A DNA stretch of 64,000 nucleotides from Betaproteobacteria bacterium (lineage in GTDB: Bacteria; Pseudomonadota; Gammaproteobacteria; Burkholderiales; SG8-39), in assembly GCA_947467435.1 (NCBI GenBank), contig CANIIA010000002.1:20882-84881 (forward strand), in the 5' to 3' direction. The notes beneath the pieces were generated by a model that had not been told where the DNA came from, searched no databases, and saw nothing but the letters and a program-made list of their open reading frames with translations. Shown here one piece after another: positions 140 through 14,622 of this stretch (position 1 is the first letter of the stretch; each line of letters begins with the position of its first letter). Position numbers and translations under genes: made by a program.

Positions 140-1546
140 CTACACGTCGGCAGCCGAAAAGCGCACACGCACACAGCAACCGTGGCCAAGCGATGCGTCA
201 AGGATCTCGACCTGCGCGGTGTGTAAGGCGGCAATTTCCGCCACAATCGCCAAGCCCAATCCACTGCCTGTTCCCACCGTGCCCGGCAGCCGATAAAACC
301 GTTCGAGTACGCGCGCGCGCTCGGCCTCCGGTATGCCCGGCCCGTCGTCCTCGACCTCTAACACGCAATACGTGCCGATACGGGTACTGCGCACGGTGAT
401 CCGTCCACCCACCGAACAATATTCAACCGCATTCGCAATTAAATTCACCAAGAGCTCACGCAATAAAAACGCGTCCCCCAACACTGGTGCCGATTGCAGA
501 TCAAAACCCAAATCAATTTCACGCAACAGCGAGCGATGCACCCATTCATCCGCACACTCTGTGGCCACTGCACGCAAATCGACACGCTGCAAAGACATGG
601 CTTGATGACCGCCTGGTTCCGCACGTGCCAGGGCTAACAGTTGATTGGCCAAACGCGCTGTACGAATCGTGGCGCTGTGCACCTGCTCGAGCTCAGCGCG
701 CACACTGTCTGGCGCAGGCTGTGCCAACGCCAGTTCGGTATGTGCTTGTAAACCCGCTAACGGGGTTCGCAACTGATGCGCCGCATTTTCCAAAAACCGT
801 TGTTGATTTAGATTCGCCTCCGCCACGCGACCAAATAATTGATTAATGGCGCGCACCAACGGGCGCACTTCGTTGGGCGCCTCAGCCAAATCAATCGGAC
901 GTAAATCACGCGGTGAACGCGAAGAAATTTCGACGGACAAGCGCGATAGCGGGGTCAATCCTTGGCGCACACCAAACCACAATACGCCCAGCGCAAACGC
1001 GGCCAATAAAATTTGCGGCAATAAACTACCCAGCAAAATTTCGCGCGCCAACCGTACGCGCTTGACAGTGGTTTCGGCCACACGCACTTCACAGATTTGC
1101 CCATCGCAAGGCACATCCAGTTTCACAGCGCGCACCGCCTTTTGACGAAACAGAGCATCATAAAAAACCACACGCTTTGATGCAGGTGCCGCCGTGTTTT
1201 TGAGCGCTTGCGGCGGCCCAACCAACTCCGCCTCACCGCCAAGGAGTTGGCCAGCCGAATTCAAAACGGCAAAGTGCACCGTATCAAACTCATCCGTGCG
1301 TAACACTTGCTCAGCCACCACGGGTAAGTCCAGCACGGTATTTCCATTTTGTGAACGCAATCGCTGTGAAATCGCCAACGCCACATCCGCCAATGCCTGA
1401 TCGTGGGCTTCCGTGGCCACATCAATCGACACGTAATACGCCACCGCCGCCCCCAAAGACAACGCCAGCACGATCGGCGGCAACAACAGACGCAATAGGT
1501 TGCGTCGTAAACTCAGACCAAAGTTAGTCGGCACCATTGCTCCCAT
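140..1546 (-). CDS. Two-component sensor histidine kinase (QseC/TctE-like architecture)
   Basis: 468-aa ORF. Two N-terminal hydrophobic segments (LLLPPIVLALSLGAAVAYYV, LLPQILLAAFALGVLWFGV). H-box NAAHQLRTPLAGL; ATPase boxes LVNLIANAVEY, VEDDGPGIP, GSGLGLAIV. Its start overlaps the stop of the upstream response regulator; an alternative start is M4 at 1537. Confidence 0.92.
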   Translation of the reverse strand: MGAMVPTNFGLSLRRNLLRLLLPPIVLALSLGAAVAYYVSIDVATEAHDQALADVALAISQRLRSQNGNTVLDLPVVAEQVLRTDEFDTVHFAVLNSAGQLLGGEAELVGPPQALKNTAAPASKRVVFYDALFRQKAVRAVKLDVPCDGQICEVRVAETTVKRVRLAREILLGSLLPQILLAAFALGVLWFGVRQGLTPLSRLSVEISSRSPRDLRPIDLAEAPNEVRPLVRAINQLFGRVAEANLNQQRFLENAAHQLRTPLAGLQAHTELALAQPAPDSVRAELEQVHSATIRTARLANQLLALARAEPGGHQAMSLQRVDLRAVATECADEWVHRSLLREIDLGFDLQSAPVLGDAFLLRELLVNLIANAVEYCSVGGRITVRSTRIGTYCVLEVEDDGPGIPEAERARVLERFYRLPGTVGTGSGLGLAIVAEIAALHTAQVEILDASLGHGCCVRVRFSAADV

Positions 1547-2240
1547 CCTCGTTCACCGTGACAGCGTTCGGCGCCACCCACGCTTCGAACAAATAACCAA
1601 ATCCGCGCACTGTTCGAATGCGCAACCCTGCAGGCTCGAGTTTGCTGCGTAAACGCGAGACATACACTTCAATTGCATTCACCGATAAGGCTTCGTCCCA
1701 AGCGGCCATTGATTGAATGATGTGTTCCTTGCTCACCACTTGGTCCACACGCGCCAGCAAAATTTCTAATACTGCCCATTCACGCGCCACCAACTCGAGC
1801 GGCGTACCATTTAAAAAAGCACGGCGCGCCAACACATCGAGCACTAATGGGCCATGGACGCGCTGCGGCCCTGCTTGTGATTGGCTACGACGCAGTAAAG
1901 CGCGGGCACGGGCGGCAAGTTCTGGTATTGCAAAGGGCTTCACCATGTAATCGTCTGCGCCCAAATCTAAGCCACGCACCCGATCATTCACTGCATCGCG
2001 TGCGGTCAACATCATCACAGGCATGGTGCGCTGTTCAGCACGCAAGCGGCGCAGCACTTCAAACCCATCGATTCCAGGTAAGCCAATATCGAGAATGAGT
2101 AAATCGAAGTGCTCTTGCCGTACCGCTAACGCCGCGTGTTCACCATCGCGCATCACATCAACGGCATGGCCATCCGCCTGCAAAATTCGCGACAAGCCCA
2201 AGGCCAACGAATCATCATCTTCAGCGATCAAAATACGCAT
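1524..2240 (-). CDS. OmpR/PhoB-family response regulator (RR1), cognate of the adjacent kinase
   Basis: Receiver motifs ILIAEDDD, LLILDIGLPGIDG and DDYMVKPF. Winged-helix C-terminus LRIRTVRGFGYLF. Translationally coupled to the kinase gene. Confidence 0.95.
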   Translation of the reverse strand: MRILIAEDDDSLALGLSRILQADGHAVDVMRDGEHAALAVRQEHFDLLILDIGLPGIDGFEVLRRLRAEQRTMPVMMLTARDAVNDRVRGLDLGADDYMVKPFAIPELAARARALLRRSQSQAGPQRVHGPLVLDVLARRAFLNGTPLELVAREWAVLEILLARVDQVVSKEHIIQSMAAWDEALSVNAIEVYVSRLRSKLEPAGLRIRTVRGFGYLFEAWVAPNAVTVNEDGSNGAD

Positions 2241-2283
2241 GTGGGTCAGGGTGAGCTCAGGTTGTTCACCTGCGGACGTCTAA

Positions 2284-2330
2284 TTTGTACAGATTTGACG
2301 AACTTTACCGTGATTTGTGGTGCTTTGATC
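2284..2330. promoter_or_regulatory. Five TTTG/TTTA hexamers phased at exactly 10 bp in the divergent RR1 / ACP promoter region
   Basis: TTTGTA at 2284, TTTGAC at 2294, TTTACC at 2304, TTTGTG at 2314, TTTGAT at 2324. Direct repeats with about 10-bp periodicity are the usual geometry of OmpR-family binding sites. They could also produce intrinsic curvature. Confidence 0.4.
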
Positions 2331-2427
2331 CCGAAATGACCTATAACACACGCCAACTTTGCAGGCTTTAAACCAATCTCTCGGTGGTTTTCTGTAAAGT
2401 CAGGACTCAACCAACTGCGCGATTTCG

Positions 2428-2733
2428 ATGCTGTCTCAATTCGATTTCCGCACATCACTCCAGCTACCGATGACCGCACTCAACGAAGACCTGATCTTGC
2501 CACGCGTTCAATCCATGTTGCGTGAGCGTTTTGCCCTCAGCGAGGCGCAAGTCGAGGCAACGCACGCGCTCACCGAATTGGGCGTCGACTCACTTGCGGT
2601 GATTGAGTTTATGTTCGATCTCGAGACTGAGTTTGATATTTCTTTGTCTCAAGAACGCGCGGATATTCACACCATCGGTGACATCGCCGCCCTAGTGCGC
2701 GCGACACTGGATAAAACTACCACGCAAAAATGA
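2428..2733 (+). CDS. Free-standing acyl carrier protein
   Basis: Phosphopantetheine attachment motif LGVDSLAVIEF and an acidic helix-rich sequence. ATGA overlap with the next gene. The start is uncertain (alternative ATG at 2470 gives 87 aa) and there is no clear SD at either. Confidence 0.85.
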   Translation: MLSQFDFRTSLQLPMTALNEDLILPRVQSMLRERFALSEAQVEATHALTELGVDSLAVIEFMFDLETEFDISLSQERADIHTIGDIAALVRATLDKTTTQK

Positions 2734-3974
2734 GGCGTGTTGCCCTCACCGGCGCGGGTGTGATCTCGCCGGTTGGTACCGGCAAAAGTAATTTTTTTCA
2801 GCAAATCAGCGCCGGGATATCTGGTATTCGGCGACTGCAACATCCGGACGCCCAGCGCCTCGGCTTGCAGCTGGCTGGGCAAATCCAAGACTTTGATCCG
2901 AGCCAACACTTTTCTAAAGAGCGGCTCTCAACATTGGATCGCTTTAGTCAGTTTGCCCTGGTTGCTGCACACGAAGCTTGGCAACAAGCTGCCTATCCGT
3001 CGCGCTTTGATCACTCGCGCGGCGGGGTCTTTGTCGGCACCGGCATGGGTGGTGCGAGCACACTCGAAGCGGGCTATGACGCCTTGTTTCGGCAACAGCA
3101 AAACCGCGTGCGTCCAATGTCAGTCATTGCCACCATGCCTAACGCCGCTGCGGCCAACATTGGCATTGAATTTTCATTGCGCGGTCCGTGTTACACCTAC
3201 GCGGTTGCATGCGCTTCAAGCAGCGTGGCGATTGGTGAAGCTGCCCGCGCCATTGCCTACGGTGACCTGGATGTTGCGCTGGCTGGTGGTGCTGAAGCCA
3301 TGCTCTGCCTCGGTGTACTTAAAGGCTGGGAAGCGCTCATGACCCTCGCCATCGAAGACAAGCAAGCGCCCGAACAATCTTGCAAACCGTTTGCAGCGAA
3401 CCGCTGCGGATTTGTACTCGGAGAAGGGGCCGGCATGCTGGTGCTCGAAGACCTCGAACTTGCACAATCTCGCGGCGCGACGATTCTTGCTGAATTGGTC
3501 GGCTACGGCGTATCGAACGATGCGGTACATCTAAGCCGCCCAGAACCGGCTGGACAAGCTGCCGCAATGCGCGCTGCACTCAAGCAAAGTCAACTGCGCG
3601 GTATTCATCTTGAAGACATTGGCTATATCAACGCGCATGGCACAGCCACCAAAGCAGGTGATGCCAGCGAAGTCGCCGCGATCTGCGACGTGTTTGGCGC
3701 GCATCGCACCGCACTTGCCATTAGCTCGACCAAAGCAGTCCACGGACACTTGATGGGCGCTGCAGGCGCGATCGAATTCATTGCCACTGTGTTGGCGCTA
3801 CAAGCGCAGACGCTTCCACCCACGGCACACTTAACCGAACGCGATCCAGCGTTTGATTTAGATTTCGTTCCTCTGCATGCGCGCCCAGCACCTCAACTGC
3901 GCGCCGTGATGTCGAACTCGTTTGCCTTTGGCGGCGCCAACGCCGTCTTGGTTGCCGCACATCCGGACGCTTGA
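2730..3974 (+). CDS. Beta-ketoacyl-ACP synthase, KAS I/II (FabF/NodE-like)
   Basis: 414 aa. N-terminus RRVALTGAGVISPVG. Full Cys-His-His triad context: YAVACASSSVA, INAHGTATKAGD, AVHGHLMGAAG. C-terminus NSFAFGGANAVLV. Confidence 0.93.
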   Translation: MRRVALTGAGVISPVGTGKSNFFQQISAGISGIRRLQHPDAQRLGLQLAGQIQDFDPSQHFSKERLSTLDRFSQFALVAAHEAWQQAAYPSRFDHSRGGVFVGTGMGGASTLEAGYDALFRQQQNRVRPMSVIATMPNAAAANIGIEFSLRGPCYTYAVACASSSVAIGEAARAIAYGDLDVALAGGAEAMLCLGVLKGWEALMTLAIEDKQAPEQSCKPFAANRCGFVLGEGAGMLVLEDLELAQSRGATILAELVGYGVSNDAVHLSRPEPAGQAAAMRAALKQSQLRGIHLEDIGYINAHGTATKAGDASEVAAICDVFGAHRTALAISSTKAVHGHLMGAAGAIEFIATVLALQAQTLPPTAHLTERDPAFDLDFVPLHARPAPQLRAVMSNSFAFGGANAVLVAAHPDA

Positions 3975-3992
3975 CTCACCACACGCCAATTC

Positions 3993-5117
3993 ATGCACAC
4001 ATCTTCAGCACCGCGCATCACCTTACTCGTCACCGGGAGCACCGGATTTCTTGGCAGCGCAATTGTTGCCGAGCTCCTGACTGCGCATCGTGACATCGCT
4101 TTGTTATTTCTGATCCGGGCAGAAAACCCAGAAGCGGGGCGATTGCGTCTAACCCAAAGCGTACGGGGCATGCTTGCCGATCCAGCGTTACTTTCTCATC
4201 TCACGCCAGACATGATTTTGTGCGGAGATCTGCAACACTTTGCTGAGTTACAAAACGATCCACGCGTACAACGCATTACGCATATTTTGCATGCTGCAGC
4301 CTTAGCCTCGTTTGCTTGGAAACCCGAGATTTGGCAAGTCAACGTCGAACAGACCAGTCAGTTCGCACGCGCCGTGGCACAACTGCCCGCCATGCAACGG
4401 TTTTTGCATGTTGGTACCGCAATGATTTCTGGCGACACCACCAATCAGCACGTGCATGAAACTCAGTTCCCTGCCAAGGTGCGTCACTTTGTACCCTACA
4501 CCAAAAGTAAGGCAGAAATCGAACCATTGTTGCCCACCCTGCTCGGTCGCATCCCCGTAGTGATTGCACGACCTTCGATCGTGGTAGGGCATTCGCGTAC
4601 GGGTTGCAGTGCATCGCCGAGTATTTTTTGGGTGTTTCGGATGATTCACGCAGCCAAGCGCGTACCTTTTAAAACCACCAATAAAGTCGACATCATTCCA
4701 GTTGATTTTTGTGCGCGTGCATTAATTACTCTAACGCTGTCAAGCGAATTAGCGCATGCGTGTTATCACATCTCAGCGGGTGACACAGAGAGTTGTACCT
4801 TTGATGAAATTGATGCCGCTTATACACGCGCTGAAGGCCTCGGGCGCGATGCACCGTTGCAACAAATCGACGTCGCCGATCTAAGCGCACTCGAGCCACA
4901 ATTTGAATCGTGGTTCGGCCCATGTGATACCCAACGCATGTCGACGGTAGCCAAGCTGTATCGCATCTTTGCTGGACTCAACGTCACGTTTAACAATCAG
5001 CGCATGCGTGAAGCCGGCATCGCGCCTCCACCTCGCTTTGTCGACTATTTACCGGTGTGCCAACAAACCGGCGAAGATCAACCTATCGCCGAGCAAATGC
5101 TTTACGATTTTCGTTAG
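3993..5117 (+). CDS. Extended-SDR thioester reductase / fatty-acyl reductase-type protein (NAD_binding_4 'male sterility' type)
   Basis: 374 aa. Rossmann motif LLVTGSTGFLGS near the N-terminus and catalytic YTKSK (YxxxK). Size and layout match terminal reductase domains. Co-directional with ACP and KS. Confidence 0.75.
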   Translation: MHTSSAPRITLLVTGSTGFLGSAIVAELLTAHRDIALLFLIRAENPEAGRLRLTQSVRGMLADPALLSHLTPDMILCGDLQHFAELQNDPRVQRITHILHAAALASFAWKPEIWQVNVEQTSQFARAVAQLPAMQRFLHVGTAMISGDTTNQHVHETQFPAKVRHFVPYTKSKAEIEPLLPTLLGRIPVVIARPSIVVGHSRTGCSASPSIFWVFRMIHAAKRVPFKTTNKVDIIPVDFCARALITLTLSSELAHACYHISAGDTESCTFDEIDAAYTRAEGLGRDAPLQQIDVADLSALEPQFESWFGPCDTQRMSTVAKLYRIFAGLNVTFNNQRMREAGIAPPPRFVDYLPVCQQTGEDQPIAEQMLYDFR

Positions 5118-5878
5118 CGCACGACAGACGTCGGCGCTGCGGCCGCAGGGCGATACTCTTCCAACATATAACCAAAGCCACGCACCGTTCGAATACGAAT
5201 ACCTGCGGGCTCTAATTTAGCGCGTAAGCGCGAGATGTACACCTCGATCGCGTTAGCCGATAAATCTTCGGTCCAATGCGTCAGCGACTCGATAAAGGTG
5301 TCTTTGCTCACCACCTTTTCAACATGCTCCAGCAAAATTTGCAGCACCGCCCATTCACGTGCCGCCAATTCAAGCGGCTCATCATTTAAGAACGTCCGTC
5401 GCGCGACAGTATCAAACTCAAGCGGGCCGTGCACCGCGCGCGTAGAGTGATCCACCAGACCGCGCCGAATCAACGCACGTACACGTGCAGACAATTCTGG
5501 AATCGCAAACGGCTTCACCATGTAATCATCAGCGCCTAAATCTAAACCATGCACGCGATCTCCAATGGCATCGCGGGCGGTCAAGATCAATACCGGAATA
5601 CGCTGACCGATGGCGCGTAGTCGACGCAACACTTCAAACCCGTCAATGCCAGGTAAACCGACATCCAACACCATCAAATCAAACGCGGTGGCTTGCAAAC
5701 GCTCTAACGCGAGCTCGCCATTGGCGACACATGCAACTTCATGACCATCTAGCGTCAACGCACGTGTGAGTCCTGCAGTGAGGCTACTATCGTCCTCGAC
5801 AATCAATAGGCGAGCGCTGGAGGCCTCCTGCACTGCGGTTTTTGGTTGTACTTCTGCGGTTATTGGGTCTGACATCAA
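5114..5878 (-). CDS. OmpR/PhoB-family response regulator (RR2), last gene of the czcCBA-like operon, no adjacent kinase
   Basis: Receiver motifs LLIVEDD, LMVLDVGLPGIDG and DDYMVKPF. Winged helix IRIRTVRGFGYML. Starts 18 nt after the czcA-like stop. Long sequence blocks are identical to RR1. Confidence 0.93.
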   Translation of the reverse strand: MMSDPITAEVQPKTAVQEASSARLLIVEDDSSLTAGLTRALTLDGHEVACVANGELALERLQATAFDLMVLDVGLPGIDGFEVLRRLRAIGQRIPVLILTARDAIGDRVHGLDLGADDYMVKPFAIPELSARVRALIRRGLVDHSTRAVHGPLEFDTVARRTFLNDEPLELAAREWAVLQILLEHVEKVVSKDTFIESLTHWTEDLSANAIEVYISRLRAKLEPAGIRIRTVRGFGYMLEEYRPAAAAPTSVVR

Positions 5879-5896: not shown

Positions 5897-8800
5897 TCAC
5901 GCTACCGGCGGCTCATTCGGTGAACGTAAACTGATACGACCAAATAATAGTGGTAGTAACAGCAACGTAAACACCGTCGCGCTAACGATACCGCCCACAA
6001 TCACCACCGCAAATGGACGCTGCGTTTCAGAGCCAATGCCACTCGATAAGGCCGCCGGCAGCAAGCCCAATCCGGCCATCAATGCCGTCATTAAAATCGG
6101 TCGCAAACGCATCACAGCGCCTTCAACAATCGCCTCTTCCATGCGTTTGCCATGACGAATGAGCTCGATCATCTGCTCAACCATGATCACACCGTTTTGC
6201 ACCGAAATACCCGCCACGGCAATAAAGCCAACAGCGGCCGACACAGACAAATGCAACCCCGCCAATCCCAAGCCGGCAATGCCACCAATTAAAGTAAACG
6301 GCACCATCATCAAAACAACCAGCGCGCTTCTCACTGAACGAAACGCCCAAAACAACAACGAAAAAATAGCCAGCAACGATAACGGCACAACCACTTTTAA
6401 GCGCGCCATCGCACGCTGCTGATTTTCAAACTGCCCACCCCAAGTGACGGTGTAACCCGGCGGTAAGACTACTTTTTCTGCCACCAGCTTTTGCGCTTCA
6501 GCAACAAAGCTACCCTGATCACGACCGGATAAATTTGCTTTTACTGCCACAATACGACCACCGCCCTCACGCGATACGCGTGTGGCCCCTTGCCGGACCT
6601 CGACCTTCGCCACGTCACCCAACGACACAGTGGGCAACAAATTCATACCAGGCGTGGCATTGGCAGGCACAGGCAAAGGAATTTGTAAGTGTGCAATATC
6701 ATCCACCGCATCGCGATATTGGCTTAACAAACGCACCGTCACATCAAAGCGCCGACCACCGTCGTAAAACGTATTCACTGATGCGCCCGCTAGCGCGGTT
6801 TGAATGACGTTATTGACGTCACTCACGTTTAAACCCAGTCGTGCGATTTTATTTCGGTCGACGGTAATGGTGAGTTCACTTTGTCCACCGATACGAAACA
6901 CGGCTACATCCACAGCACCGCGAATGGTATTAAGCACCTCTACAATTTGATCGCCCTTTTCCTGCAAAATTTCAAGGTCAGGGCCAAATACTTTGACCAC
7001 AATTTCCCCGCGCGCACCAGACAACGCCTCTTCGACGTTGTCTTGAATGACTTGCGAAAAATTCGTCGGTACGCCCGGAATACGATGAATGCGCGCGGAC
7101 ATATCGCGTACCAAATCATCTTTGGTGGCAAAACGCCATTCTCCACGCGGCTTGAGCTCAGCCAGTATTTCTAAGTTGTTCGGGCCCTTTGGATCGGTGC
7201 CATCATCGGGTCGGCCCACTTGAGTGACCACCATATTCACTTCAGGGTAGCTGCGCAAAATAGTCCGCACTTCGCGCTCGATATCTTTGGTTTTTTGCAG
7301 GCTACTGGGCGGTGGCATGGTAATGGTCAGCCAGATATTGCCTTCATCGAGTTTGGGTAAAAATTCACTGCCTAACAAAGGCACCACCGCAACAGAGGCG
7401 GCAAGCAAACTCAAGGACACAAAAATCAACTGACGTGCATGCTGATCTAGGGCCAACAAAAAGGCGCGATAGCGTTCTTGTAACGCATGCATCCACGCCG
7501 AGTGTTTTTCAACCATATCACCTGATTTCAAGGCGTAAGTTAGAAGGGTCGGGACAAGAATCAAGGTCAGGATAATTGCGCCAAGCAAAGCAAATGACAG
7601 CGTAAAGGTGACCGGCGTAAAAATTTTTCCTTCTACCCGCTGAAAGGTAAAGATCGGCAGAAAGGCAATAATGATGATGGCCTTTGAAAACAAGATGGGG
7701 TGACACAGCGACACCGCAGTGTGCTTTAGTTCATGTAACCGCCAACCGTACGTGCCATGGGCTGGATTTTTATCGGCTTGACTAAGCGCTAAGCGCACCA
7801 TCAGCGCTTCCACCAGTACCACCGCACTATCGACAATGATGCCGAAGTCAACGGCACCTAACGAAATCAAATTGGCCGATACGCCGCGCGCATCCATCAA
7901 AATAAACGCAAACAAGAGCGACAACGGAATCACTGTGGCGACAATCAGCGCTGCTTTCCAGTTACGCAAAAACAGCATCAACACGCCGATCACCAACAAG
8001 GCGCCCACCAGTAGATTTTCAATCACGGTGTGTACCGTGTGCTCAATCAAATCGGTCCGCTGATAAATCGGCCGGATCTTCACGCCAGGTGGTAATTTGG
8101 TGTTCACCAAATCGACTTTGGCACGCAGATCCTTCACCACCTTGGCGGCGTTTTGCCCCTTGATCATTTGCACAATACCTTCGACCACTTCATCGCGATC
8201 GTTGGCTGCAACAATGCCCTGACGCGGTCGCATGCCAATGCGCACTTGTGCAAGATCAGACACGTAAACCGGGCGCCCACCTGGTGAGGCCACCACCGTG
8301 CGGCCAATGTCGTCGAGATTTTCAAATAAACCTACGCCACGAATCACCAACGCCTCATCACCGCGACGCATTAACCCACCGCCAACGTTCGCGCTGTTAT
8401 TTGCCAAGGCTTGCGAGACTTGATCCAGCGTCACACCGTAGCGCTTCAGCGCAAACGGATCGACCCGCGCTTGGTACTCCTTGACGGCACCACCAAAGCT
8501 AATCACATCCGCAATACCAGGCACGATGCGTAGTGCGGGCTTGATGGTCCAATCTTGAATCGCGCGAATTTCGTATAAAGGCATTTCTGCCGGTGCATCC
8601 AGCACGTAACGATAGATTTCACCCACCGCCGTTGAGAGTGGCGCCAGCTGCGGCTGCGCACCCGTCGGTAGCGTGACGTTGCCCAGTTTTTCTAAGACTT
8701 GCTGACGTGCGAAGTAATCGTCGGTGCCTTCTGCAAAGGTCAGCGTGACCACCGACAATCCAGTAATCGACACTGAACGTAAATTAGTCTGACGCGGTAC

Positions 8801-9025
8801 ACCGCTCATCTCGCGTTCGATGGGTAGCGTGACACTGCGCTCGACTTCTTCGGGTGCCAGCCCCGGCATTTGCGTAACGATTTGCACCTGTACATCCTGC
8901 ACATCCGGAAACGCCTCGATGGGCAAATTTTCAAGTGCTCGAAGACCAAACACCGCGAGTGCAAACGTCAACACCAGCACAAAGACGCGCTGATGCATCG
9001 CAAACGAAATCAGCCGATCAAACAT
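5897..9025 (-). CDS. czcA: Heavy-metal-efflux RND pump, CzcA/CusA family
   Basis: 1042 aa. Starts MFDRLISFAMHQRVFVLVL. 12-TM RND layout with two large periplasmic loops. TM4 segment is VDFGIIVDSAVVLVEA. Confidence 0.93.
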   Translation of the reverse strand: MFDRLISFAMHQRVFVLVLTFALAVFGLRALENLPIEAFPDVQDVQVQIVTQMPGLAPEEVERSVTLPIEREMSGVPRQTNLRSVSITGLSVVTLTFAEGTDDYFARQQVLEKLGNVTLPTGAQPQLAPLSTAVGEIYRYVLDAPAEMPLYEIRAIQDWTIKPALRIVPGIADVISFGGAVKEYQARVDPFALKRYGVTLDQVSQALANNSANVGGGLMRRGDEALVIRGVGLFENLDDIGRTVVASPGGRPVYVSDLAQVRIGMRPRQGIVAANDRDEVVEGIVQMIKGQNAAKVVKDLRAKVDLVNTKLPPGVKIRPIYQRTDLIEHTVHTVIENLLVGALLVIGVLMLFLRNWKAALIVATVIPLSLLFAFILMDARGVSANLISLGAVDFGIIVDSAVVLVEALMVRLALSQADKNPAHGTYGWRLHELKHTAVSLCHPILFSKAIIIIAFLPIFTFQRVEGKIFTPVTFTLSFALLGAIILTLILVPTLLTYALKSGDMVEKHSAWMHALQERYRAFLLALDQHARQLIFVSLSLLAASVAVVPLLGSEFLPKLDEGNIWLTITMPPPSSLQKTKDIEREVRTILRSYPEVNMVVTQVGRPDDGTDPKGPNNLEILAELKPRGEWRFATKDDLVRDMSARIHRIPGVPTNFSQVIQDNVEEALSGARGEIVVKVFGPDLEILQEKGDQIVEVLNTIRGAVDVAVFRIGGQSELTITVDRNKIARLGLNVSDVNNVIQTALAGASVNTFYDGGRRFDVTVRLLSQYRDAVDDIAHLQIPLPVPANATPGMNLLPTVSLGDVAKVEVRQGATRVSREGGGRIVAVKANLSGRDQGSFVAEAQKLVAEKVVLPPGYTVTWGGQFENQQRAMARLKVVVPLSLLAIFSLLFWAFRSVRSALVVLMMVPFTLIGGIAGLGLAGLHLSVSAAVGFIAVAGISVQNGVIMVEQMIELIRHGKRMEEAIVEGAVMRLRPILMTALMAGLGLLPAALSSGIGSETQRPFAVVIVGGIVSATVFTLLLLPLLFGRISLRSPNEPPVA

Positions 9026-10215: not shown

Positions 10216-11502
10216 TCAGGGCGCGACACTTGTGCTTGCCGCAGTGATACTGGCACGCCAAGCATGTAAGGCACGTGCATGCTCTGCACGTGCGGCCAAT
10301 GCTTCGAGTTGTACAGCGCGTAAGGTGCGGCGTGCATCCAACACTTCAAGCACCGACGTGGCGCCGCGCGCAAACGCAAATTCAGCGGCTTCGGCGGTAC
10401 GCTGTGCGGCAGCCAGCAAACTGCCTTCATAGCGCTCGACACGTTCACCTGCGGCGCGCAAATCGCTATCGGCGCGCGCGATTTCGGTGGCTGCAGCAGC
10501 ACGCACGCGGGCGAGTTGATCCAGCGCCGTGTTTCGATCGACCTCAGCACGCTGAATATCGCCAGAAAAATCGTTACCAAAAAATAAAGGCACGGATACG
10601 CCAAAGCCCACGCTATTGGCCGGGACGTTGCCGGCATAGCGTTCAAACTGCGCACCCACAGAGACATCACGCGTGCGCTGACTTCGCGCCAATTCACGTA
10701 AGCGCTCTGCTGCATCAAACCGCGACTGTGCAGCACGCACATCGGCGCGGGCTTCTACTGTCGTTTCAATCGAAGTTGCGCGTACGGGCGCATTGGCTGG
10801 CCATGATTCTGCGGCACGTAGTTGGCTTGCTTGGGCTTCTTCACCAATTAAAAATGCCAACGCAAACTGCGCGCGCACGCGCTCAGCTTCGGCGCCACGC
10901 AAATCGGCCGAAGCGCGCTCTGCATCCACCTGTACACGCGCCACGTCGGCCGGAGAAATATCCCCGGCCTTTAAGCGCGTTTGTGCGACCGCGAGTGTCT
11001 TAGCAAATAATTCTGCGTTTTCACGCATCAGCGTGTTTTTTTCTTGCGCCTGTTGCAAATCAACGTACGCCGAACGCGCCGCCAACAATTGCTGTCGCAA
11101 CACATCTGACACATCGCCACGTGCAGCCATTTCGAGTCGCTGAGCGGCATCGACACGTAACGCACGCTTATTGCCACGCTCAATGGTTTGATCTACGCGG
11201 TAGATGTTATCGATGCGCTTGTTATTCCAACTGCCCGAACCCACGCCTGGGTTGCTATTGATTCCCGTGCTACTGAACGACACCACCGGGTTGGGCAACA
11301 CATCCGCTTGACGAATTTGTGCTTCGGCGCCTTCCAGTGCGCGACGTGCGGCTTGCACATCGCGGTTTGCGCGCAGCACCAACGTTTCAATTTGCGCGAG
11401 CGTGAGTTCGCGCACGGTCGATGATTGAGCGTGAACTGAAAATGCGCTAACAAATAAATATGTTGCGGCTAATAAAGACAACCGCTGGGTTAAACGTCGC
11501 AT
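10216..11502 (-). CDS. czcC: TolC-family outer-membrane efflux protein (CzcC-like)
   Basis: ORF 10216..11556. Preferred start is at 11502 (MRRLTQRLSLLAATYLFVSAFSVHAQS signal peptide). Two OEP-type repeats rich in A/R/E/L. Confidence 0.88.
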   Translation of the reverse strand: MRRLTQRLSLLAATYLFVSAFSVHAQSSTVRELTLAQIETLVLRANRDVQAARRALEGAEAQIRQADVLPNPVVSFSSTGINSNPGVGSGSWNNKRIDNIYRVDQTIERGNKRALRVDAAQRLEMAARGDVSDVLRQQLLAARSAYVDLQQAQEKNTLMRENAELFAKTLAVAQTRLKAGDISPADVARVQVDAERASADLRGAEAERVRAQFALAFLIGEEAQASQLRAAESWPANAPVRATSIETTVEARADVRAAQSRFDAAERLRELARSQRTRDVSVGAQFERYAGNVPANSVGFGVSVPLFFGNDFSGDIQRAEVDRNTALDQLARVRAAAATEIARADSDLRAAGERVERYEGSLLAAAQRTAEAAEFAFARGATSVLEVLDARRTLRAVQLEALAARAEHARALHAWRASITAASTSVAP

Positions 11503-11731
11503 AACAAGAATCCGCTTGCCTCTGTAGACAACGTATTGCCGGGCGCGGATTGTCACACCTTTGCGCTGAATGGGGAACGTACCTTACGCGCCAGGCTTGT
11601 CCACAAGCTTGCGAGAAGCTGTCTAAATTCTGACGTTGCATCGCAACATGATCGAGCGTGTAGCGATCTGTTTGGTTGCGAGGTGCTTGGGGCTGGATTA
11701 GGATCCAACGCACTGTTCCTAGGAGGGTCCG

Positions 11732-12211
11732 ATGACCATCAACGTCTCTATGCAAGTCAATGGCAAAGCCGCCAGCGTGAATGTCGAAGAACGCACGTTA
11801 TTGGTGACCGTGCTGCGCGAAGAACTTCGTCTTACCGGCACGCACGTCGGCTGCGATACCGCCCAGTGCGGTGCATGCACCGTGCATATGAATGGCAAGG
11901 CCGTAAAGTCTTGCTCGATGCTCGCCATGCAAGCCGAGGGTGCGCAAATTTTGACCATCGAAGGTGTTGCCCATGCAGATGGCAGCCTGCATCCAATGCA
12001 GGCGGCGTTTAAAGAGCATCACGGTCTGCAATGCGGTTTTTGTACCCCCGGCATGGTGATGAATGCCATCGATTTAGTGCAAGGTCGACCTAACATCACC
12101 GAAGAAGAAATTCGTCACGGACTCGAAGGTAACTTGTGTCGCTGTACCGGCTATCACAACATTGTGAAGTCGATTGCAGCTGGTGCAAAAGCAATGGCAA
12201 GCGCGAAGTAA
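11732..12211 (+). CDS. coxS: [2Fe-2S] small subunit of a molybdenum hydroxylase (CoxS-like)
   Basis: 159 aa. Motifs [38 protein letters not shown] about 6 nt upstream. Confidence 0.93.
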
Positions 12212-12255
12212 CGCTCAAAAAAACACAACCAAAATAAACGGTTCAGGAGACGACA

Positions 12256-14622
12256 ATGAATGCACCTTTGATCGGCGCACGGGTTGCGCGTAAAGAAGAC
12301 TACCGTTTCCTCACCGGTGCTGGGCAATACACCGATGATGTGAATCTGCCACATCAAACGTACGCCGCCTTTGTTCGTTCACCGCACGCACACGCAAAGT
12401 TAAAGCGCATTCAGACCAGCAAAGCCAAACAACATCCCGGTGTGCTTGCGATTTTTACTGGTGAAGACATGCAGGTGGGCAGTTTGCCTTGCGGTTGGCT
12501 GATTACCGATGTGCATGGCCAACCCATGAAAGAACCGCCGCATCCGCCCTTAGCGCAAGGCAAAGTTCGGCACGTGGGTGACCAGGTCGCGGTGGTAATT
12601 GCAGAAACGCTTTCAGCTGCGCGTGATGCCGCCGAGTTGGTCGAGGTGGAGTACGAGGTCCTTCCAGCAGTGATTGATATGGCCAAGGCCACCGCAGCGG
12701 GCGCCCCGGCCATTCATGACGCTGCGCCAGATAACACCTGCTACGTGTGGGCCTTAGGAGATCAAAGCGCGTGCGACGAAGCGTTTAAAAAAGCGGCGCA
12801 TGTCACACGTCTCAATTTAGTGAATAACCGTCTCATTCCCAATGCCATCGAGCCACGCGCAGTCAACGGCAGTTATTCGCGCGGCGATGATAGCTATACG
12901 CTATACGTCTCGAGTCAAAACCCTCACGTCGAACGTCTTTTGATGACTGCGTTTGTGCTGGGGTTACCCGAGCACAAGGTACGTGTCGTTGCACCTGATG
13001 TGGGTGGTGGGTTTGGCTCAAAAATTTATTTGTACGCTGAAGATGTGGTGGTGACTTGGGCCTCCAAACAAATCGGCGGACGCCCCGTGAAGTGGACTGG
13101 CGATCGCAGCGAATCTTTTTTAAGCGACGCGCATGGTCGCGATCACATCACGCAGGCCGAGTTAGCGCTGGATAAAGACGGAAAATTTCTGGCACTGCGC
13201 GTACACACGACAGCCAATATGGGCGCTTACCTATCCACCTTTGCGTCGTGTATCCCAACGATTTTGTATGCCACGCTGCTGGCAGGCCAATACGCCACGC
13301 CGGCGATTTACTGTGAAGTCAAAGCGGTCTTCACGAACACCGCGCCTGTCGATGCTTATCGTGGCGCAGGCCGTCCTGAGGCGGCGTACGTGGTAGAGCG
13401 CATCGTTGAAACCGCCGCGCGTGAACTGAAGATCGATCCGGCAGAATTACGGCGACGTAATTTCGTGCGTAATTTTCCATATCAAACCCCCGTGGCGCTG
13501 ACCTATGACACGGGTGATTTTCAAGCCACACTCGATGGCGCCATTCAACTGAGCGATGTCGCTGGATTTGCTCAGCGTAGAAAAGCTTCTGAAGCGGCCG
13601 GTAAATTACGCGGCCTCGGCTACGCCGCGTACATCGAAGCTTGCGGCTTGGCCCCTTCGAACATTGCTGGCGCCCTCGGTGCGCGCGCAGGGTTATTTGA
13701 AGCAGGCGAGGTACGTGTACATCCCACCGGATCAGTGACGGTGTTTACTGGATCACACTCACACGGCCAAGGGCACGAAACCACGTTCGCGCAAGTCGTG
13801 GCCGATCGTTTAGGCATGCCGATCGAAAACGTCGATATCGTGCACGGCGATACCTCGAAGGTGGTGTTTGGCATGGGCACTTATGGCTCGCGCTCGCTGT
13901 CGGTGGGTGGTACCGCGATCGTGAAAGCCTTAGACAAAATTATCGCGAAGGGCAAAAAAATAGCAGCGCACTTAATGGAAGCCGCAGAAGCCGATATCGA
14001 TTACGACAGCGGCGTATTCAAAGTGAGTGGCACGGATAAACAAAAAACCTTTGGCGAAGTCGCCTTTGCGGCGTACGTGCCACACAACTATCCGCTCGAT
14101 AAACTCGAACCCGGCCTCAATGAAAATGCGTTTTACGATCCCACCAACTTCACCTACCCCTCTGGTACATACATTTGTGAAGTCGAAGTCGATCCAGACA
14201 CGGGCACCGTGCGCGTCGATCGATTTACGGCTGTTGATGACTTTGGAAAAATCGTCAATCCAATGATTGTCGAGGGACAAGTGCATGGCGGCGTGACCCA
14301 AGGCATCGGTCAAGCCTTACTCGAAGGTTGTCATTACGATACTGAAACCGGTCAATTGATCACTGGCTCGTTTATGGATTACGCCATGCCGCGTGCCGAA
14401 GATGTACCGAGTTATGCGCTAGCAACGCGCGAAACACCGTGCACGCATAATCCGTTAGGCGTGAAAGGTTGCGGTGAGGCTGGCGCGATCGGCGCACCTG
14501 CGGCATTAATGAATGCCATCACCGATGCGCTGAGTATTTACGGTATTCAAGATTTACCGATGCCCGCTAGCCCACAAACTGTGTGGAAAGCGATCCGCGC
14601 CGCGCAACAAAAAGCGGCCTAA
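12256..14622 (+). CDS. coxL: Molybdopterin-binding large subunit, form-II CoxL-like
   Basis: 788 aa. N-terminus [17 protein letters not shown], then VGGGFGSK. Active-site loop [12 protein letters not shown] (AYRGAGR signature of form-II/putative CODH, not the form-I AYRCSFR). Confidence 0.9.

What the first reader, a model, noticed from the sequence alone, without database searches (positions are those of the whole stretch)
140..5878. Biosynthetic cassette bracketed by two directly oriented, highly similar response-regulator genes, only one of which has a kinase
RR1 (1524-2240) and RR2 (5114-5878) are both on the minus strand. They share long identical blocks:
- GLPGIDGFEVLRRLRA
- GLDLGADDYMVKPFAIPEL
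- NAIEVY(V/I)SRLR(S/A)KLEPAG(L/I)RIRTVRGFGY

By eye roughly two thirds of residues match, and the DNA is also visibly similar. RR2 ends a czcCBA-R operon but has no kinase. RR1 is translationally coupled to the only kinase.

The 2.9-kb ACP-KS-reductase operon lies exactly between them on the other strand. This looks like a czcCBA-RS locus that was split by duplication of R and acquisition of a cassette. It predicts cross-talk, with one kinase serving two regulators. It also predicts possible loss of the cassette by recombination between the paralogs.
Basis: partly seen in the sequence, partly recalled or inferred. Interest (0 to 1): 0.6.

Follow-up and report, generated by a model that had tools for sequence, protein, structure and literature searches.

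The report
Duplicated regulators flank CprA-type lipid operon
An uncultured betaproteobacterium has a metal-efflux locus in which one sensor kinase sits with two old duplicate response regulators, and between them lies an operon joining a carrier protein and a chain-extending enzyme to a relative of CprA/HlyF, an enzyme family linked to antimicrobial-peptide resistance whose substrate is still unknown.

Summary
RR1 (1524-2240) and RR2 (5114-5878) are same-strand paralogues, 63% identical, bracketing ACP-KS-reductase. No other kinase or receiver gene lies in the 64 kb.

- **Duplication:** Phylogeny shows a lineage-specific duplication. Kinase-coupled and pump-coupled regulators form sister clades (59/60 and 60/60 bootstraps). 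Their nearest relatives are single regulators in czcCBA-R-S operons.
- **Timing:** The split predates the cassette. Five related loci keep pump-RR-[slot]-RR, four of them showing the single kinase. One has both window flanks. One has three regulators and one kinase. Their slot holds an LtaS/OpgB-like transferase, sometimes with a PAP2 phosphatase or an ACP.
- **Cassette:** It is not random cargo. The reductase fits the HlyF/CprA family, PmrAB-regulated in Pseudomonas. ACP-KS-linked members form their own clade (50/50). CprA-type genes adjoin this pump subfamily in about eight arrangements.
- **Excision:** Recombination between the paralogues is unlikely now (62% DNA identity, longest identical run 17 bp). 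Regulator 3' relics in two sister loci show it happened earlier.
- **Shared kinase:** Plausible, untested.

This is a new variant of known kinds. Its main value is the suggestion that CprA/HlyF enzymes act on carrier-protein thioesters.

The parts
140..1546 (-). Sensor histidine kinase (2CSK_N periplasmic domain, HisKA, HATPase_c). The likely start is the ATG at 1537. It is the only kinase in the window.
   Evidence: Pfam. NCBIfam best hits are QseC, heavy-metal HK and PmrB, all below cutoff. No other HK found by tblastn. The DHp helix AAHQLRTPLAGLQAHTELA and a periplasmic P-C-x4-C motif are shared with the kinases of all multi-regulator sister loci.
1524..2240 (-). RR1, an OmpR-family response regulator of the kinase-coupled type. 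Its 3' end overlaps the kinase start.
   Evidence: Pfam Response_reg + Trans_reg_C. The RR1-type clade has 97/100 and 59/60 bootstrap support.
2284..2333 (+). Five TTT(G/A)NN units at an exact 10-bp period in the 187-bp divergent RR1/ACP spacer. The array overlaps a 15-nt palindrome at 2277-2300. It is a candidate operator for an OmpR-family regulator.
   Evidence: Unique in the window, with 0 of 100 shuffles giving a match. Repeats listed. Present in same-species L003. Not found upstream of ACP in other cassette loci.
2428..2733 (+). Dedicated acyl carrier protein with the DSL phosphopantetheine-attachment serine.
   Evidence: Pfam PP-binding. DSL at residue 54. ATGA stop/start overlap with KS.
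2730..3974 (+). FabF-like beta-ketoacyl-ACP synthase II with an intact Cys-His-His triad.
   Evidence: Pfam ketoacyl-synt N and C domains. NCBIfam PRK07314 scores 431.8 against a cutoff of 387. C160, H303 and H339 are present.
3993..5117 (+). HlyF/CprA-family short-chain dehydrogenase (a FAR-N / thioester-reductase-like enzyme), belonging to the ACP-KS-linked 'DFR' subclade.
   Evidence: Pfam NAD_binding_4. 44-45% identical to Pseudomonas proteins named CprA. 41.6% identical to the E. coli plasmid SDR between omptin and mig-14. Motifs TGSTGFLG, YTKSK and C-terminal DFR. Clade support 50/50. Nearest solved structures are carrier-protein thioester reductases.
5114..5878 (-). RR2, an OmpR-family response regulator of the pump-coupled type. 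It is the last gene of the pump operon, has no adjacent kinase and carries a 22-residue N-terminal extension.
   Evidence: Pfam. The RR2-type clade has 100/100 and 60/60 bootstrap support. An 18-bp gap with a Shine-Dalgarno-like sequence follows czcA. The phospho-acceptor pocket is intact.
5897..9025 (-). CusA/CzcA-family RND permease of a distinct subfamily whose TM4 signature is DFG-DSA-VEA.
   Evidence: NCBIfam TIGR00914 scores 1019 against a cutoff of 701. Signature survey across orthologues. Canonical motif from PMC3637150.
9032..10261 (-). CzcB-type periplasmic adaptor.
   Evidence: Pfam HlyD_D23 and HlyD_3. NCBIfam RND_mfp is met; the CzcB/NccB model is below cutoff.
10216..11556 (-). 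CzcC/TolC-type outer-membrane factor. The likely start is 11502, as called on the parent contig.
   Evidence: Pfam OEP. Gene call on L001.

Best explanation
SHOWN:
- The locus is a conserved betaproteobacterial module with the layout [HME-type RND pump + pump-coupled regulator] x 1-2, then a variable slot of envelope-lipid genes, then a kinase-coupled regulator and one sensor kinase.
- RR1 (kinase-coupled) and RR2 (pump-coupled) arose by duplication of the regulator of an ancestral czcCBA-R-S operon. The duplication happened before the window organism diverged from several relatives.
- In the window lineage the slot holds ACP-KS-reductase, transcribed divergently from RR1-HK. In the five sister loci it holds a sulfatase-superfamily transferase, with a PAP2 phosphatase in one (L176) and an ACP in another (L177).
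- The reductase is a member of the HlyF/CprA family. Its ACP-KS-linked relatives form their own clade.

INFERRED:
- The single kinase senses a periplasmic cation or envelope signal through its 2CSK_N domain and phosphorylates both regulator types, giving a branched pathway.
- The two regulators have the same recognition helix and dimerisation face, so they probably read the same or similar operators and may form heterodimers.
- RR2 is made only when the pump operon is transcribed, so it would add a pump-linked feed-forward or tuning layer.
- RR1-P, RR2-P or both would act at the phased 10-bp array between RR1 and ACP to control both RR1-HK and the cassette.
- The KS would load an acyl chain onto the dedicated ACP by one malonyl extension. 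The CprA-type reductase would then release it reductively as an aldehyde or alcohol lipid that remodels the outer membrane.
- That would parallel the PmrAB-controlled cprA and eptA responses, coupling lipid remodelling to cation efflux.
For: - **Layout and paralogy:**
- **Duplication:** the RR1 and RR2 clades are sisters (joint clade 100/100; 59/60, 60/60 and 60/60). The outgroup is single regulators in czcCBA-R-S operons (sister placement of L021/L071 74/100 but only 19/60).
- **Conserved multi-regulator layout:** pump-RR-[slot]-RR in L004, L174, L175, L176 and L177, with a single kinase shown in the first four. L174 has identical outer flanks, and L176 has three regulators to one kinase.
- **RR2 is under selection:** it is 72-76% identical to its orthologues against 72-78% for RR1, and its D/D/D51/T79/K101 pocket is intact.
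- **Shared surfaces:** the alpha4-beta5-alpha5 face and the recognition helix NAIEVY(V/I)SRLRxKLEP are the same in both clades.
- **Kinases:** those of all multi-regulator loci share one DHp helix and a P-C-x4-C motif.
- **Slot contents are all envelope or lipid enzymes:** Sulfatase PF00884 of LtaS/OpgB-like type, PAP2 and ACP.
- **Reductase is HlyF/CprA family:**, using the family definition and the PmrAB regulation reported in PMC11752146.
- **Recurrent linkage:** CprA-type genes lie next to CzcA orthologues (63-78% identical) in the window/L003, L005, L085, L087, L100, L117/L120, L125 and L141. They lie next to 2CSK_N-type or other OmpR-family two-component systems in L090, L092 and L118.
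- **Cassette enzymes look active:**
- **Operator candidate:** a unique phased array in the divergent spacer.
- **No sign of recent transfer:** cassette GC and GC3 match the neighbours.
Against: - Phosphotransfer from the kinase to RR2 is not shown. Helix alpha1, the main determinant of kinase-partner specificity, differs consistently between the clades at positions 19, 21 and 22 (RIL(E/Q)A against mostly RAL(G/T)(L/M)). That pattern is also what insulation of paralogues would look like. An orphan kinase elsewhere in the genome cannot be excluded from 64-107 kb of contig.
- No significant copy of the array motif occurs in the czcC promoter (rank about 15 in the window). The array is not conserved in other cassette loci. 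No shared operator has been demonstrated.
- The signal is unknown. The two-component system misses every curated family cutoff.
- The chemistry of the cassette is inferred from domain families only, and the CprA/HlyF substrate is unknown in the literature I could search.
- Trees are neighbour-joining with 40-100 bootstraps, not maximum likelihood.
Confidence: 0.55

Rival explanations
1. There are two insulated systems side by side. RR1-HK controls only the divergent lipid cassette. RR2 is an orphan regulator served by a different kinase encoded elsewhere, so there is no cross-talk.
For: Clade-specific, conserved differences in helix alpha1 (I19 against A/G, plus positions 21 and 22) and in DNA-binding-domain helix alpha2 are the kind of changes that insulate paralogous pathways after duplication (my knowledge of the Laub-lab work, not checked here). 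Only part of the genome is visible.
Against: The kinase-less pump-coupled regulator is conserved next to a single kinase in four related loci (a fifth, L177, is cut off before any kinase gene), including one with three regulators and one kinase. No second kinase lies within 64 kb. The other alpha1 contact positions (S11, L12, G15, R18) are the same in RR1 and RR2, although R18 varies in the second pump-coupled sub-branch. The recognition helix is identical, so the outputs would still converge on the same DNA sites.
Confidence: 0.22
2. RR2 is a modulator, not a signalling output. It would act as a phosphate sink or as a competitor or heterodimer partner that tunes RR1 activity in proportion to pump-operon transcription.
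For: RR2 is co-transcribed with the pump, 18 bp after czcA. It has the same dimerisation face and recognition helix as RR1. It differs around the alpha2-alpha3 region, which in OmpR/PhoB-family proteins contacts RNA polymerase (my knowledge; differences shown).
Against: The full DNA-binding domain is conserved at 72-76% identity across genomes. That argues for a DNA-binding role, not a pure sink. There is no direct evidence either way.
Confidence: 0.12
3. One reading: a recently acquired biosynthetic cassette bracketed by recombinogenic direct repeats and therefore prone to precise excision.
For: The two regulator genes are direct repeats around the cassette. Regulator 3' relics upstream of the slot gene in L176 and L177 show past rearrangement through regulator genes.
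Against: DNA identity is 62%, third codon positions match at 41% and the longest identical run is 17 bp. That run is shorter than the roughly 25 bp or more of identity RecA-dependent recombination needs in E. coli (my knowledge). Composition matches the neighbours. The two-regulator layout predates the cassette. A same-species genome (L003) keeps the same layout.
Confidence: 0.04
4. The cassette makes a small polyketide-like metabolite such as a metal chelator or a signal, unrelated to envelope lipids, and the pump exports it.
For: ACP + KS + terminal reductase is also the minimal architecture of reductive-release PKS modules. The nearest solved structures are PKS/NRPS terminal reductase domains. 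In two lineages the cassette sits in the same operon as czcBA.
Against: The reductase sits within the HlyF/CprA family (41-45% identity and most defining motifs), whose known effects are on membrane lipids and vesicles. The KS is FabF-like, not PKS-like. There are no acyltransferase, tailoring or adenylation genes.
Confidence: 0.07

Closest known systems
PmrAB (BasRS) regulon: the pmrCAB/eptA-pmrA-pmrB operon of enterobacteria and PmrAB-controlled cprA of Pseudomonas aeruginosa
   Same: It has an OmpR-family regulator and a periplasm-sensing kinase. Both window regulators score best against PmrA in NCBIfam. In sister loci a sulfatase-superfamily membrane transferase lies directly upstream of RR-HK, the gene order of pmrCAB (the pmrCAB order is from my knowledge). 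A CprA-family reductase lies next to the regulator, and cprA is directly PmrAB-regulated in P. aeruginosa (PMC11752146).
   Different: PmrA and PmrB scores are far below the curated cutoffs (216 against 330; 164 against 314). The slot transferase is LtaS/OpgB-like, not EptA. There are two or three regulators per kinase. The system is embedded in an RND pump locus. The reductase has its own ACP and KS, whereas Pseudomonas cprA stands alone.
HlyF/CprA family of cytoplasmic SDRs (Goman et al. 2025, PMC11752146)
   Same: 374 residues, TGxTGFxG and YTxSK motifs, a conserved C-terminal QM..DF(K/R), and 41-45% identity to HlyF and Pseudomonas CprA over about 97% of the length.
   Different: The window protein belongs to a separate, well-supported subclade (50/50) that ends in DFR, not DFK, and is always preceded by ACP and KS genes. 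That context is not mentioned in the papers I could search. The organism is environmental, not a pathogen. Vesicle and autophagy phenotypes are untested.
czcCBA-czcRS heavy-metal efflux loci (Cupriavidus metallidurans, Pseudomonas)
   Same: A tripartite CzcC/CzcB/CzcA-type pump followed by a two-component system on the same strand. Many relatives have exactly czcCBA-R-S. The permease passes the CusA/CzcA family cutoff.
   Different: TM4 reads DFG-DSA-VEA, not DFG-DGA-VEN. The regulator and kinase fail the heavy-metal TCS models TIGR01387 and TIGR01386, and the kinase has a 2CSK_N sensor domain. The regulator is duplicated. Metal specificity is unknown.
Branched or cross-regulating two-component systems (e.g. 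E. coli CusSR/HprSR sharing one DNA box; cyanobacterial Hik33/NblS with RpaB and SrrA) - from my knowledge, not checked here
   Same: More than one OmpR-family regulator is tied to one kinase or one operator. The paralogous regulators have the same recognition helix.
   Different: Here the extra regulators are each physically attached to an efflux-pump operon, and the whole set is one contiguous, syntenically conserved locus. Phosphotransfer is not demonstrated.

Membership tests
HlyF/CprA SDR family (definition in PMC11752146) | Length 360-385 residues | tested here: met
   374 residues.
HlyF/CprA SDR family (definition in PMC11752146) | At least 40% identity to CprA/HlyF | tested here: met
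   44-45% to Pseudomonas proteins named CprA over 97-98% of the query. 41.6% over 97% to the E. coli plasmid SDR flanked by omptin and mig-14.
HlyF/CprA SDR family (definition in PMC11752146) | NAD(P)H site TG.TGF.G and catalytic YT.SK | tested here: met
   TGSTGFLG at residue 14 and YTKSK at residue 169. Both are conserved across alignment A2.
HlyF/CprA SDR family (definition in PMC11752146) | Conserved C-terminal D-F/Y-K | tested here: inconclusive
   The protein ends in D-F-R, a conservative Lys-to-Arg change. Every member of the ACP-KS-linked subclade has DFR and all others have DFK.
HlyF/CprA SDR family (definition in PMC11752146) | Induces outer-membrane vesicles and contributes to polymyxin resistance; PmrAB-regulated | not testable with these tools
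   This needs expression and phenotype assays. The only evidence here is adjacency to a PmrA-like regulator.
CusA/CzcA heavy-metal efflux RND (HME) | NCBIfam TIGR00914 curated cutoff | tested here: met
   1019 bits against a cutoff of 701.
HME1/HME2 (CzcA, CnrA, NccA) | TM4 signature DFG-DGA-VEN | tested here: not met
   The window and all 66-100% orthologues read DFG-D(S/G)A-VEA. Co-resident paralogous pumps read DFG-DGA-VEN. The motif definition is from PMC3637150. The two Asp and the Glu needed for proton relay are kept.
Heavy-metal two-component system (CzcRS/CusRS/CopRS) | NCBIfam TIGR01387 (regulator) and TIGR01386 (kinase) cutoffs | tested here: not met
   RR1 scores 180.8 and RR2 173.8 against a cutoff of 279.2. 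The kinase scores 177.3 against 292.55.
PmrA/PmrB (BasR/BasS) | NCBIfam equivalog cutoffs NF007928 and NF008025 | tested here: not met
   RR1 scores 216.4 and RR2 212.1 against 330. The kinase scores 164.1 against 314. PmrA is nevertheless the top-scoring model for both regulators.
Branched two-component pathway (one kinase, several regulators) | Several regulators with intact phospho-acceptor residues and a single kinase gene in the locus, conserved across genomes | tested here: met
   Two regulators to one kinase in the window, L003, L004, L174 and L175, and three to one in L176; L177 has three regulators but is cut off before any kinase gene. The acceptor pocket is intact.
Branched two-component pathway (one kinase, several regulators) | Phosphotransfer from the one kinase to each regulator | not testable with these tools
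   This needs in vitro phosphotransfer profiling. Sequence evidence is mixed: most contact positions are shared, but alpha1 positions 19, 21 and 22 differ.
Beta-ketoacyl-ACP synthase II (FabF-like) | Curated cutoff and Cys-His-His triad | tested here: met
   PRK07314 subfamily scores 431.8 against 387. The FabF equivalog TIGR03150 scores 444.9, below its cutoff of 493.75, so this is a FabF-like paralogue and not FabF itself. C160, H303 and H339 are present.
EptA/PmrC phosphoethanolamine transferase (for the slot gene of sister loci) | Match to an EptA-type model | tested here: not met
   Pfam finds only the Sulfatase domain. The best NCBIfam hits are phosphoglycerol transferase I and LtaS, at 59-65 bits against cutoffs of 572-970. 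The resemblance to pmrC is by enzyme superfamily and gene order only.

The most novel reading that the evidence does not exclude
HlyF/CprA enzymes are reductases of carrier-protein-bound acyl thioesters. In this betaproteobacterial clade they come with their own ACP and chain-extending KS. Their reduced lipid product is functionally tied to the unusual VEA-type 'CzcA' pump: either the pump handles the lipid, or the lipid protects the outer membrane against the cation the pump expels. The whole unit would be run by one kinase through two or three paralogous regulators. That would make the locus a lipid-remodelling and efflux unit, and not simply a metal-resistance operon with an inserted cassette.
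Probability: 0.15. Interest if true: 0.8.

Novelty: new variant of a known kind. Interest (0 to 1): 0.5.

Why it matters
There are two reasons.

First, the enzymatic substrate and lipid product of the HlyF/CprA family are still unidentified in the literature I could search. This family contributes to colistin and antimicrobial-peptide resistance and to vesicle-mediated virulence in P. aeruginosa, E. coli and other bacteria. A well-supported subclade that is always fused in an operon with a dedicated ACP and a FabF-like KS points to ACP thioesters as the substrate class. It also offers a self-contained three-gene system for reconstitution.

Second, the locus family is a natural series in which one kinase is kept while its regulator has been duplicated one or two times and attached to efflux-pump operons. 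The slot between the regulators swaps envelope-lipid genes. That makes it a tractable case for studying how paralogous regulators are either kept on one kinase or insulated after duplication, and how cation efflux is coupled to outer-membrane remodelling.

Tried and rejected
- **Shared operator in the czcC promoter.** The 11-mer AATTTNNACAG occurs in both promoter regions, but 14 of 100 shuffles do as well. A weight matrix built from the five array units ranks the czcC promoter only about 15th in the window. Rejected as evidence.
- **Array upstream of ACP in other cassette loci.** Absent. Phased TTTR triplets are also absent from the sister loci.
- **An apparent TTTGTATCGATTTGTCC match upstream of czcC in L004**. 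This probably lies inside the signal-peptide coding sequence, so I did not count it.
- **First metagenome scan with the single reductase protein.** It found nothing. The second scan, with alignment A2, worked.
- **Consensus promoter and terminator scan.** Uninformative: 3 promoter-like sites against 7.9 expected, and no terminator at gene ends apart from a weak one after the kinase at 62-78.
- **Rfam.** No family reaches its gathering score anywhere in the window.
- **Empty-site search for the whole block between coxSLM and xdhC-mocA.** No fetched locus has these genes adjacent without the block.
- **Co-variation between the kinase DHp helix and regulator helix alpha1.** The kinases of two-regulator genomes read ..GLQAHTE.. 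and those of single-regulator relatives ..GLQTQ.E... However, Ile at alpha1 position 19 also occurs with TQ-type kinases, so no inference was drawn.
- **Relics of regulator or kinase genes in the window's non-coding DNA.** None found with a low-stringency tblastn. The 12 in-frame codons upstream of the RR1 start that BLAST aligned to the RR2 N-terminal extension are too weak to count.
- **Recent horizontal transfer of the cassette.** Rejected, because its GC and GC3 match the neighbours.

Full report
**1. What is in the sequence**

- On the minus strand are a kinase (140-1546; 2CSK_N, HisKA, HATPase_c) and RR1 (1524-2240).
- On the plus strand are an ACP (2428-2733), a KS (2730-3974) and an NAD_binding_4 reductase (3993-5117).
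- Back on the minus strand are RR2 (5114-5878), czcA (5897-9025), czcB and czcC.

RR1 and RR2 are 63% identical, E = 7e-102. At the DNA level they are only 62% identical. Third codon positions match at 41%, and the longest identical run is 17 bp. This is an old duplication, not a recent repeat.

tblastn with the kinase and both regulators finds no other kinase or receiver gene in the 64 kb. The junctions are tight:
- RR1 overlaps the kinase start.
- ACP and KS share an ATGA stop/start overlap.
- czcA and RR2 are 18 bp apart, with a Shine-Dalgarno-like sequence in the gap.
- The reductase and RR2 stop codons share TTAG at 5114-5117.

The cassette's GC and GC3 match its neighbours. The window is part of a metagenome contig. 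Beyond the kinase lie xdhC, mocA, glyA, nrdR and ribD.

**2. Are the two regulators a local duplication?**

I anchored on CzcA and fetched 80 orthologous loci from species-representative genomes. I then mapped all nine window proteins onto them.
- About a dozen relatives carry a plain czcCBA-RR-HK operon. Others have HK-RR divergent from czcC.
- L003, from the same species, repeats the window layout.
- L004 (CzcA 81%) has two regulators separated by a different gene.

A neighbour-joining tree of 37 regulators gives RR1-type 97/100, RR2-type 100/100 and the two together 100/100. The single regulators of Sulfuriferula czcCBA-R-S operons are the sister group, at 74/100; the later tree with more sequences recovers that sister placement in only 19 of 60 bootstraps.

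A protein search with RR2 found many 70-76% relatives. Four context look-ups were decisive.
- **L174** has coxMLS on one side and xdhC-mocA...glyA-nrdR-ribD on the other, exactly the window's flanks. Its layout is czcCBA-RR-[646-aa sulfatase-family gene]-RR-HK.
- **L175** has the same layout.
- **L176** has czcBA-RR-czcBA-RR-PAP2-sulfatase-RR-HK, which is three regulators and one kinase.
- **L177** has czcCBA-RR, an Nramp gene, then czcBA-RR-ACP-sulfatase-RR. The locus ends before any kinase gene.

With these sequences added, the kinase-coupled regulators form one clade (59/60) and all pump-following regulators form another (60/60). Together they are monophyletic (60/60). The duplication is real and happened in place. 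It is older than the cassette, because in the sister loci the slot holds a membrane-anchored sulfatase-superfamily transferase. The best NCBIfam matches for that transferase are phosphoglycerol transferase I and LtaS, far below their cutoffs.

**3. The cassette**

The reductase's homologues at 44-45% identity are named 'cationic peptide resistance protein CprA' in Pseudomonas. It is 41.6% identical over 97% of its length to an SDR carried by 663 E. coli plasmids, lying between an omptin gene and mig-14. From my knowledge, that is the hlyF neighbourhood.

Goman et al. (PMC11752146) define the HlyF/CprA family by four features: 360-385 residues, at least 40% identity, the TG.TGF.G and YT.SK motifs, and a conserved C-terminal D-F/Y-K. 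They also report that cprA is directly regulated by PmrAB and that the substrate is unknown. Later preprints still call the lipid species unidentified.

The window protein has TGSTGFLG and YTKSK and ends in DFR. The nearest solved structures are carrier-protein thioester reductase domains: MxaA, Mtb Nrp and AusA. The KS has its Cys-His-His triad and passes the KS II subfamily cutoff, and the ACP has its DSL serine.

**4. The cassette is not random cargo**

Context look-ups and a metagenome scan show the following.
- ACP-KS-reductase lies directly downstream of czcBA on the same strand in L085 and L087.
- It is convergent with a 2CSK_N kinase-regulator pair in L090.
- It stands alone in L083, L091 and L094.
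- CprA-type genes without ACP-KS lie next to CzcA orthologues (63-78% identical to the window's) in L005, L100, L117/L120, L125 and L141.
- CprA-type genes lie next to two-component systems in L092 and L118.
- L018 has hydrolase-ACP-KS-RR-HK-czcCBA.
- Pseudomonas cprA stands alone.

In a tree of 32 family members, the ACP-KS-linked genes form one clade (50/50 bootstraps), and all of them end in DFR. A czc- or TCS-linked DFK clade has 49/50 support. The linkage between this enzyme family, this pump subfamily and this type of two-component system has therefore arisen or been kept in about eight different arrangements. That argues for a functional connection.

**5. The pump and the two-component system**

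The permease passes the CusA/CzcA cutoff. However, it and all of its 66-100% orthologues read DFG-D(S/G)A-VEA in TM4. Paralogous pumps in the same loci have the canonical DFG-DGA-VEN.

The regulators score best against PmrA, TctD and QseB, and the kinase against QseC, heavy-metal kinases and PmrB. All are below the curated cutoffs. 'czcR' and 'czcS' are therefore convenient labels, not family assignments.

The kinases of all multi-regulator loci share the DHp helix AAHQLRTPLAGLQAHTELA and a periplasmic P-C-x4-C motif. Single-regulator relatives lack both.

**6. One kinase for two regulators?**

Several observations favour a shared kinase:
- The kinase-less regulator is conserved at 72-76% identity across genomes.
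- Its acceptor pocket is intact.
- At the four other alpha1 contact positions I compared, RR1 and RR2 are identical (S, L, G, R), although R18 varies in the second pump-coupled sub-branch.
- The alpha4-beta5-alpha5 face and the recognition helix are essentially identical in both clades.

Against it, or at least left open, alpha1 positions 19, 21 and 22 differ consistently between the clades. Only part of the genome is visible. I rate a shared kinase as the most likely arrangement, but it is inference.

**7. Operators**

The 187-bp RR1/ACP spacer holds five TTT(G/A)NN units at an exact 10-bp period (2284-2333). The array is unique in the window, with 0 of 100 shuffles matching. It overlaps a palindrome. 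That spacing fits tandem OmpR-family half-sites. The array would sit over the RR1 promoter and upstream of the ACP promoter. I found no significant copy in the czcC promoter and none in other cassette loci.

**8. Recombination**

Present-day excision through RR1/RR2 homology is unlikely, given 62% DNA identity and 17-bp runs. However, L176 carries a 26-residue regulator C-terminus relic (LASTGWAIRTVRGFGYMLEDFREHGA, 62% identical to RR2) between PAP2 and the sulfatase gene. L177 has a decayed copy at the same position. The slot has therefore been remodelled through regulator genes in the past.

**9. Verdict**

The locus is best described as follows: a conserved pump-plus-regulator module, a variable envelope-lipid slot that here holds an ACP-KS-CprA operon, and a terminal regulator-kinase pair. 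It most likely works as a branched cation or envelope-stress pathway. It is a new variant of known kinds. The most useful lead is the ACP-KS context, which bears on the unknown CprA/HlyF substrate.

Noticed in passing
L176:10477-10554; L177: about 16620-16660: A relic of a response-regulator 3' end lies in the gap just upstream of the slot's sulfatase-family gene. In L176 it reads LASTGWAIRTVRGFGYMLEDFREHGA, 62% identical to the RR2 C-terminus. The L177 copy is frameshifted and more decayed. This implies past rearrangement through regulator genes.
   Followed up: partly
window 5897-9025 (CzcA residues about 389-410) and all orthologues in L003-L082: The whole CzcA subfamily has the TM4 signature DFG-D(S/G)A-VEA. 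Paralogous pumps in the same loci have the canonical DFG-DGA-VEN. The Asn-to-Ala change is invariant across 66-100% orthologues, and its functional meaning is unknown.
   Followed up: partly
window 140-1546 (kinase residues about 146-152); kinases of L004, L174, L175 and L176: A periplasmic P-C-x4-C motif (PCDGQIC, PCGPAIC, PCGAGTC, PCGTGVC) is conserved only in the kinases of multi-regulator loci. It is absent from kinases of single-regulator relatives. It could be a metal-binding or redox site.
   Followed up: partly
window 2277-2333: Five 10-bp-phased TTT(G/A)NN units overlap a 15-nt, 87% palindrome (CGTCTAATTTGTACA / TGTACAGATTTGACG). The element is unique in the window and present in same-species L003, but not in other loci.
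   Followed up: yes
window 5114-5117: The convergent reductase and RR2 genes share their stop codons in the four bases TTAG. There is no spacer or terminator between the pump operon and the cassette, so each transcript would read into the antisense strand of the other.
   Followed up: no
window 11732-14622 and beyond; L001:4427-6037; L174 and L175: The whole pump-regulator-slot-regulator-kinase block sits between the structural genes of a CoxSLM-type molybdenum hydroxylase and its maturation genes xdhC and mocA. This holds in the window, L174 and L175. L004 shares only the xdhC side. No empty site was found.
   Followed up: partly
L173 (E. coli plasmid NZ_CP103534.1, 160-8257): The E. coli plasmid homologue (the hlyF position) is flanked by an omptin protease and mig-14, which is annotated as an antimicrobial resistance protein. 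Omptins also defend against antimicrobial peptides (my knowledge). The family thus keeps company with peptide-resistance genes there as well.
   Followed up: no
L004:16015-16020; L174, L175 and L176, about 37-45 bp upstream of the RR1-type start codon: A conserved TATCAT, resembling a -10 element, lies upstream of the kinase-coupled regulator gene in all four sulfatase-slot loci. This suggests an internal promoter for RR-HK. The window has TACAAAT at a similar distance, inside the repeat array.
   Followed up: no
L083:4078-6042: A 654-residue ORF with no Pfam match lies directly upstream of an ACP-KS-reductase cassette that has no pump or two-component system nearby.
   Followed up: no
window 2241-2276: BLAST extends the RR2-RR1 alignment 12 in-frame codons upstream of the RR1 ATG, into sequence that weakly resembles the RR2 N-terminal extension (3 of 12 identical). 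This may be a trace of a longer ancestral 5' end, but it is too weak to rely on.
   Followed up: partly
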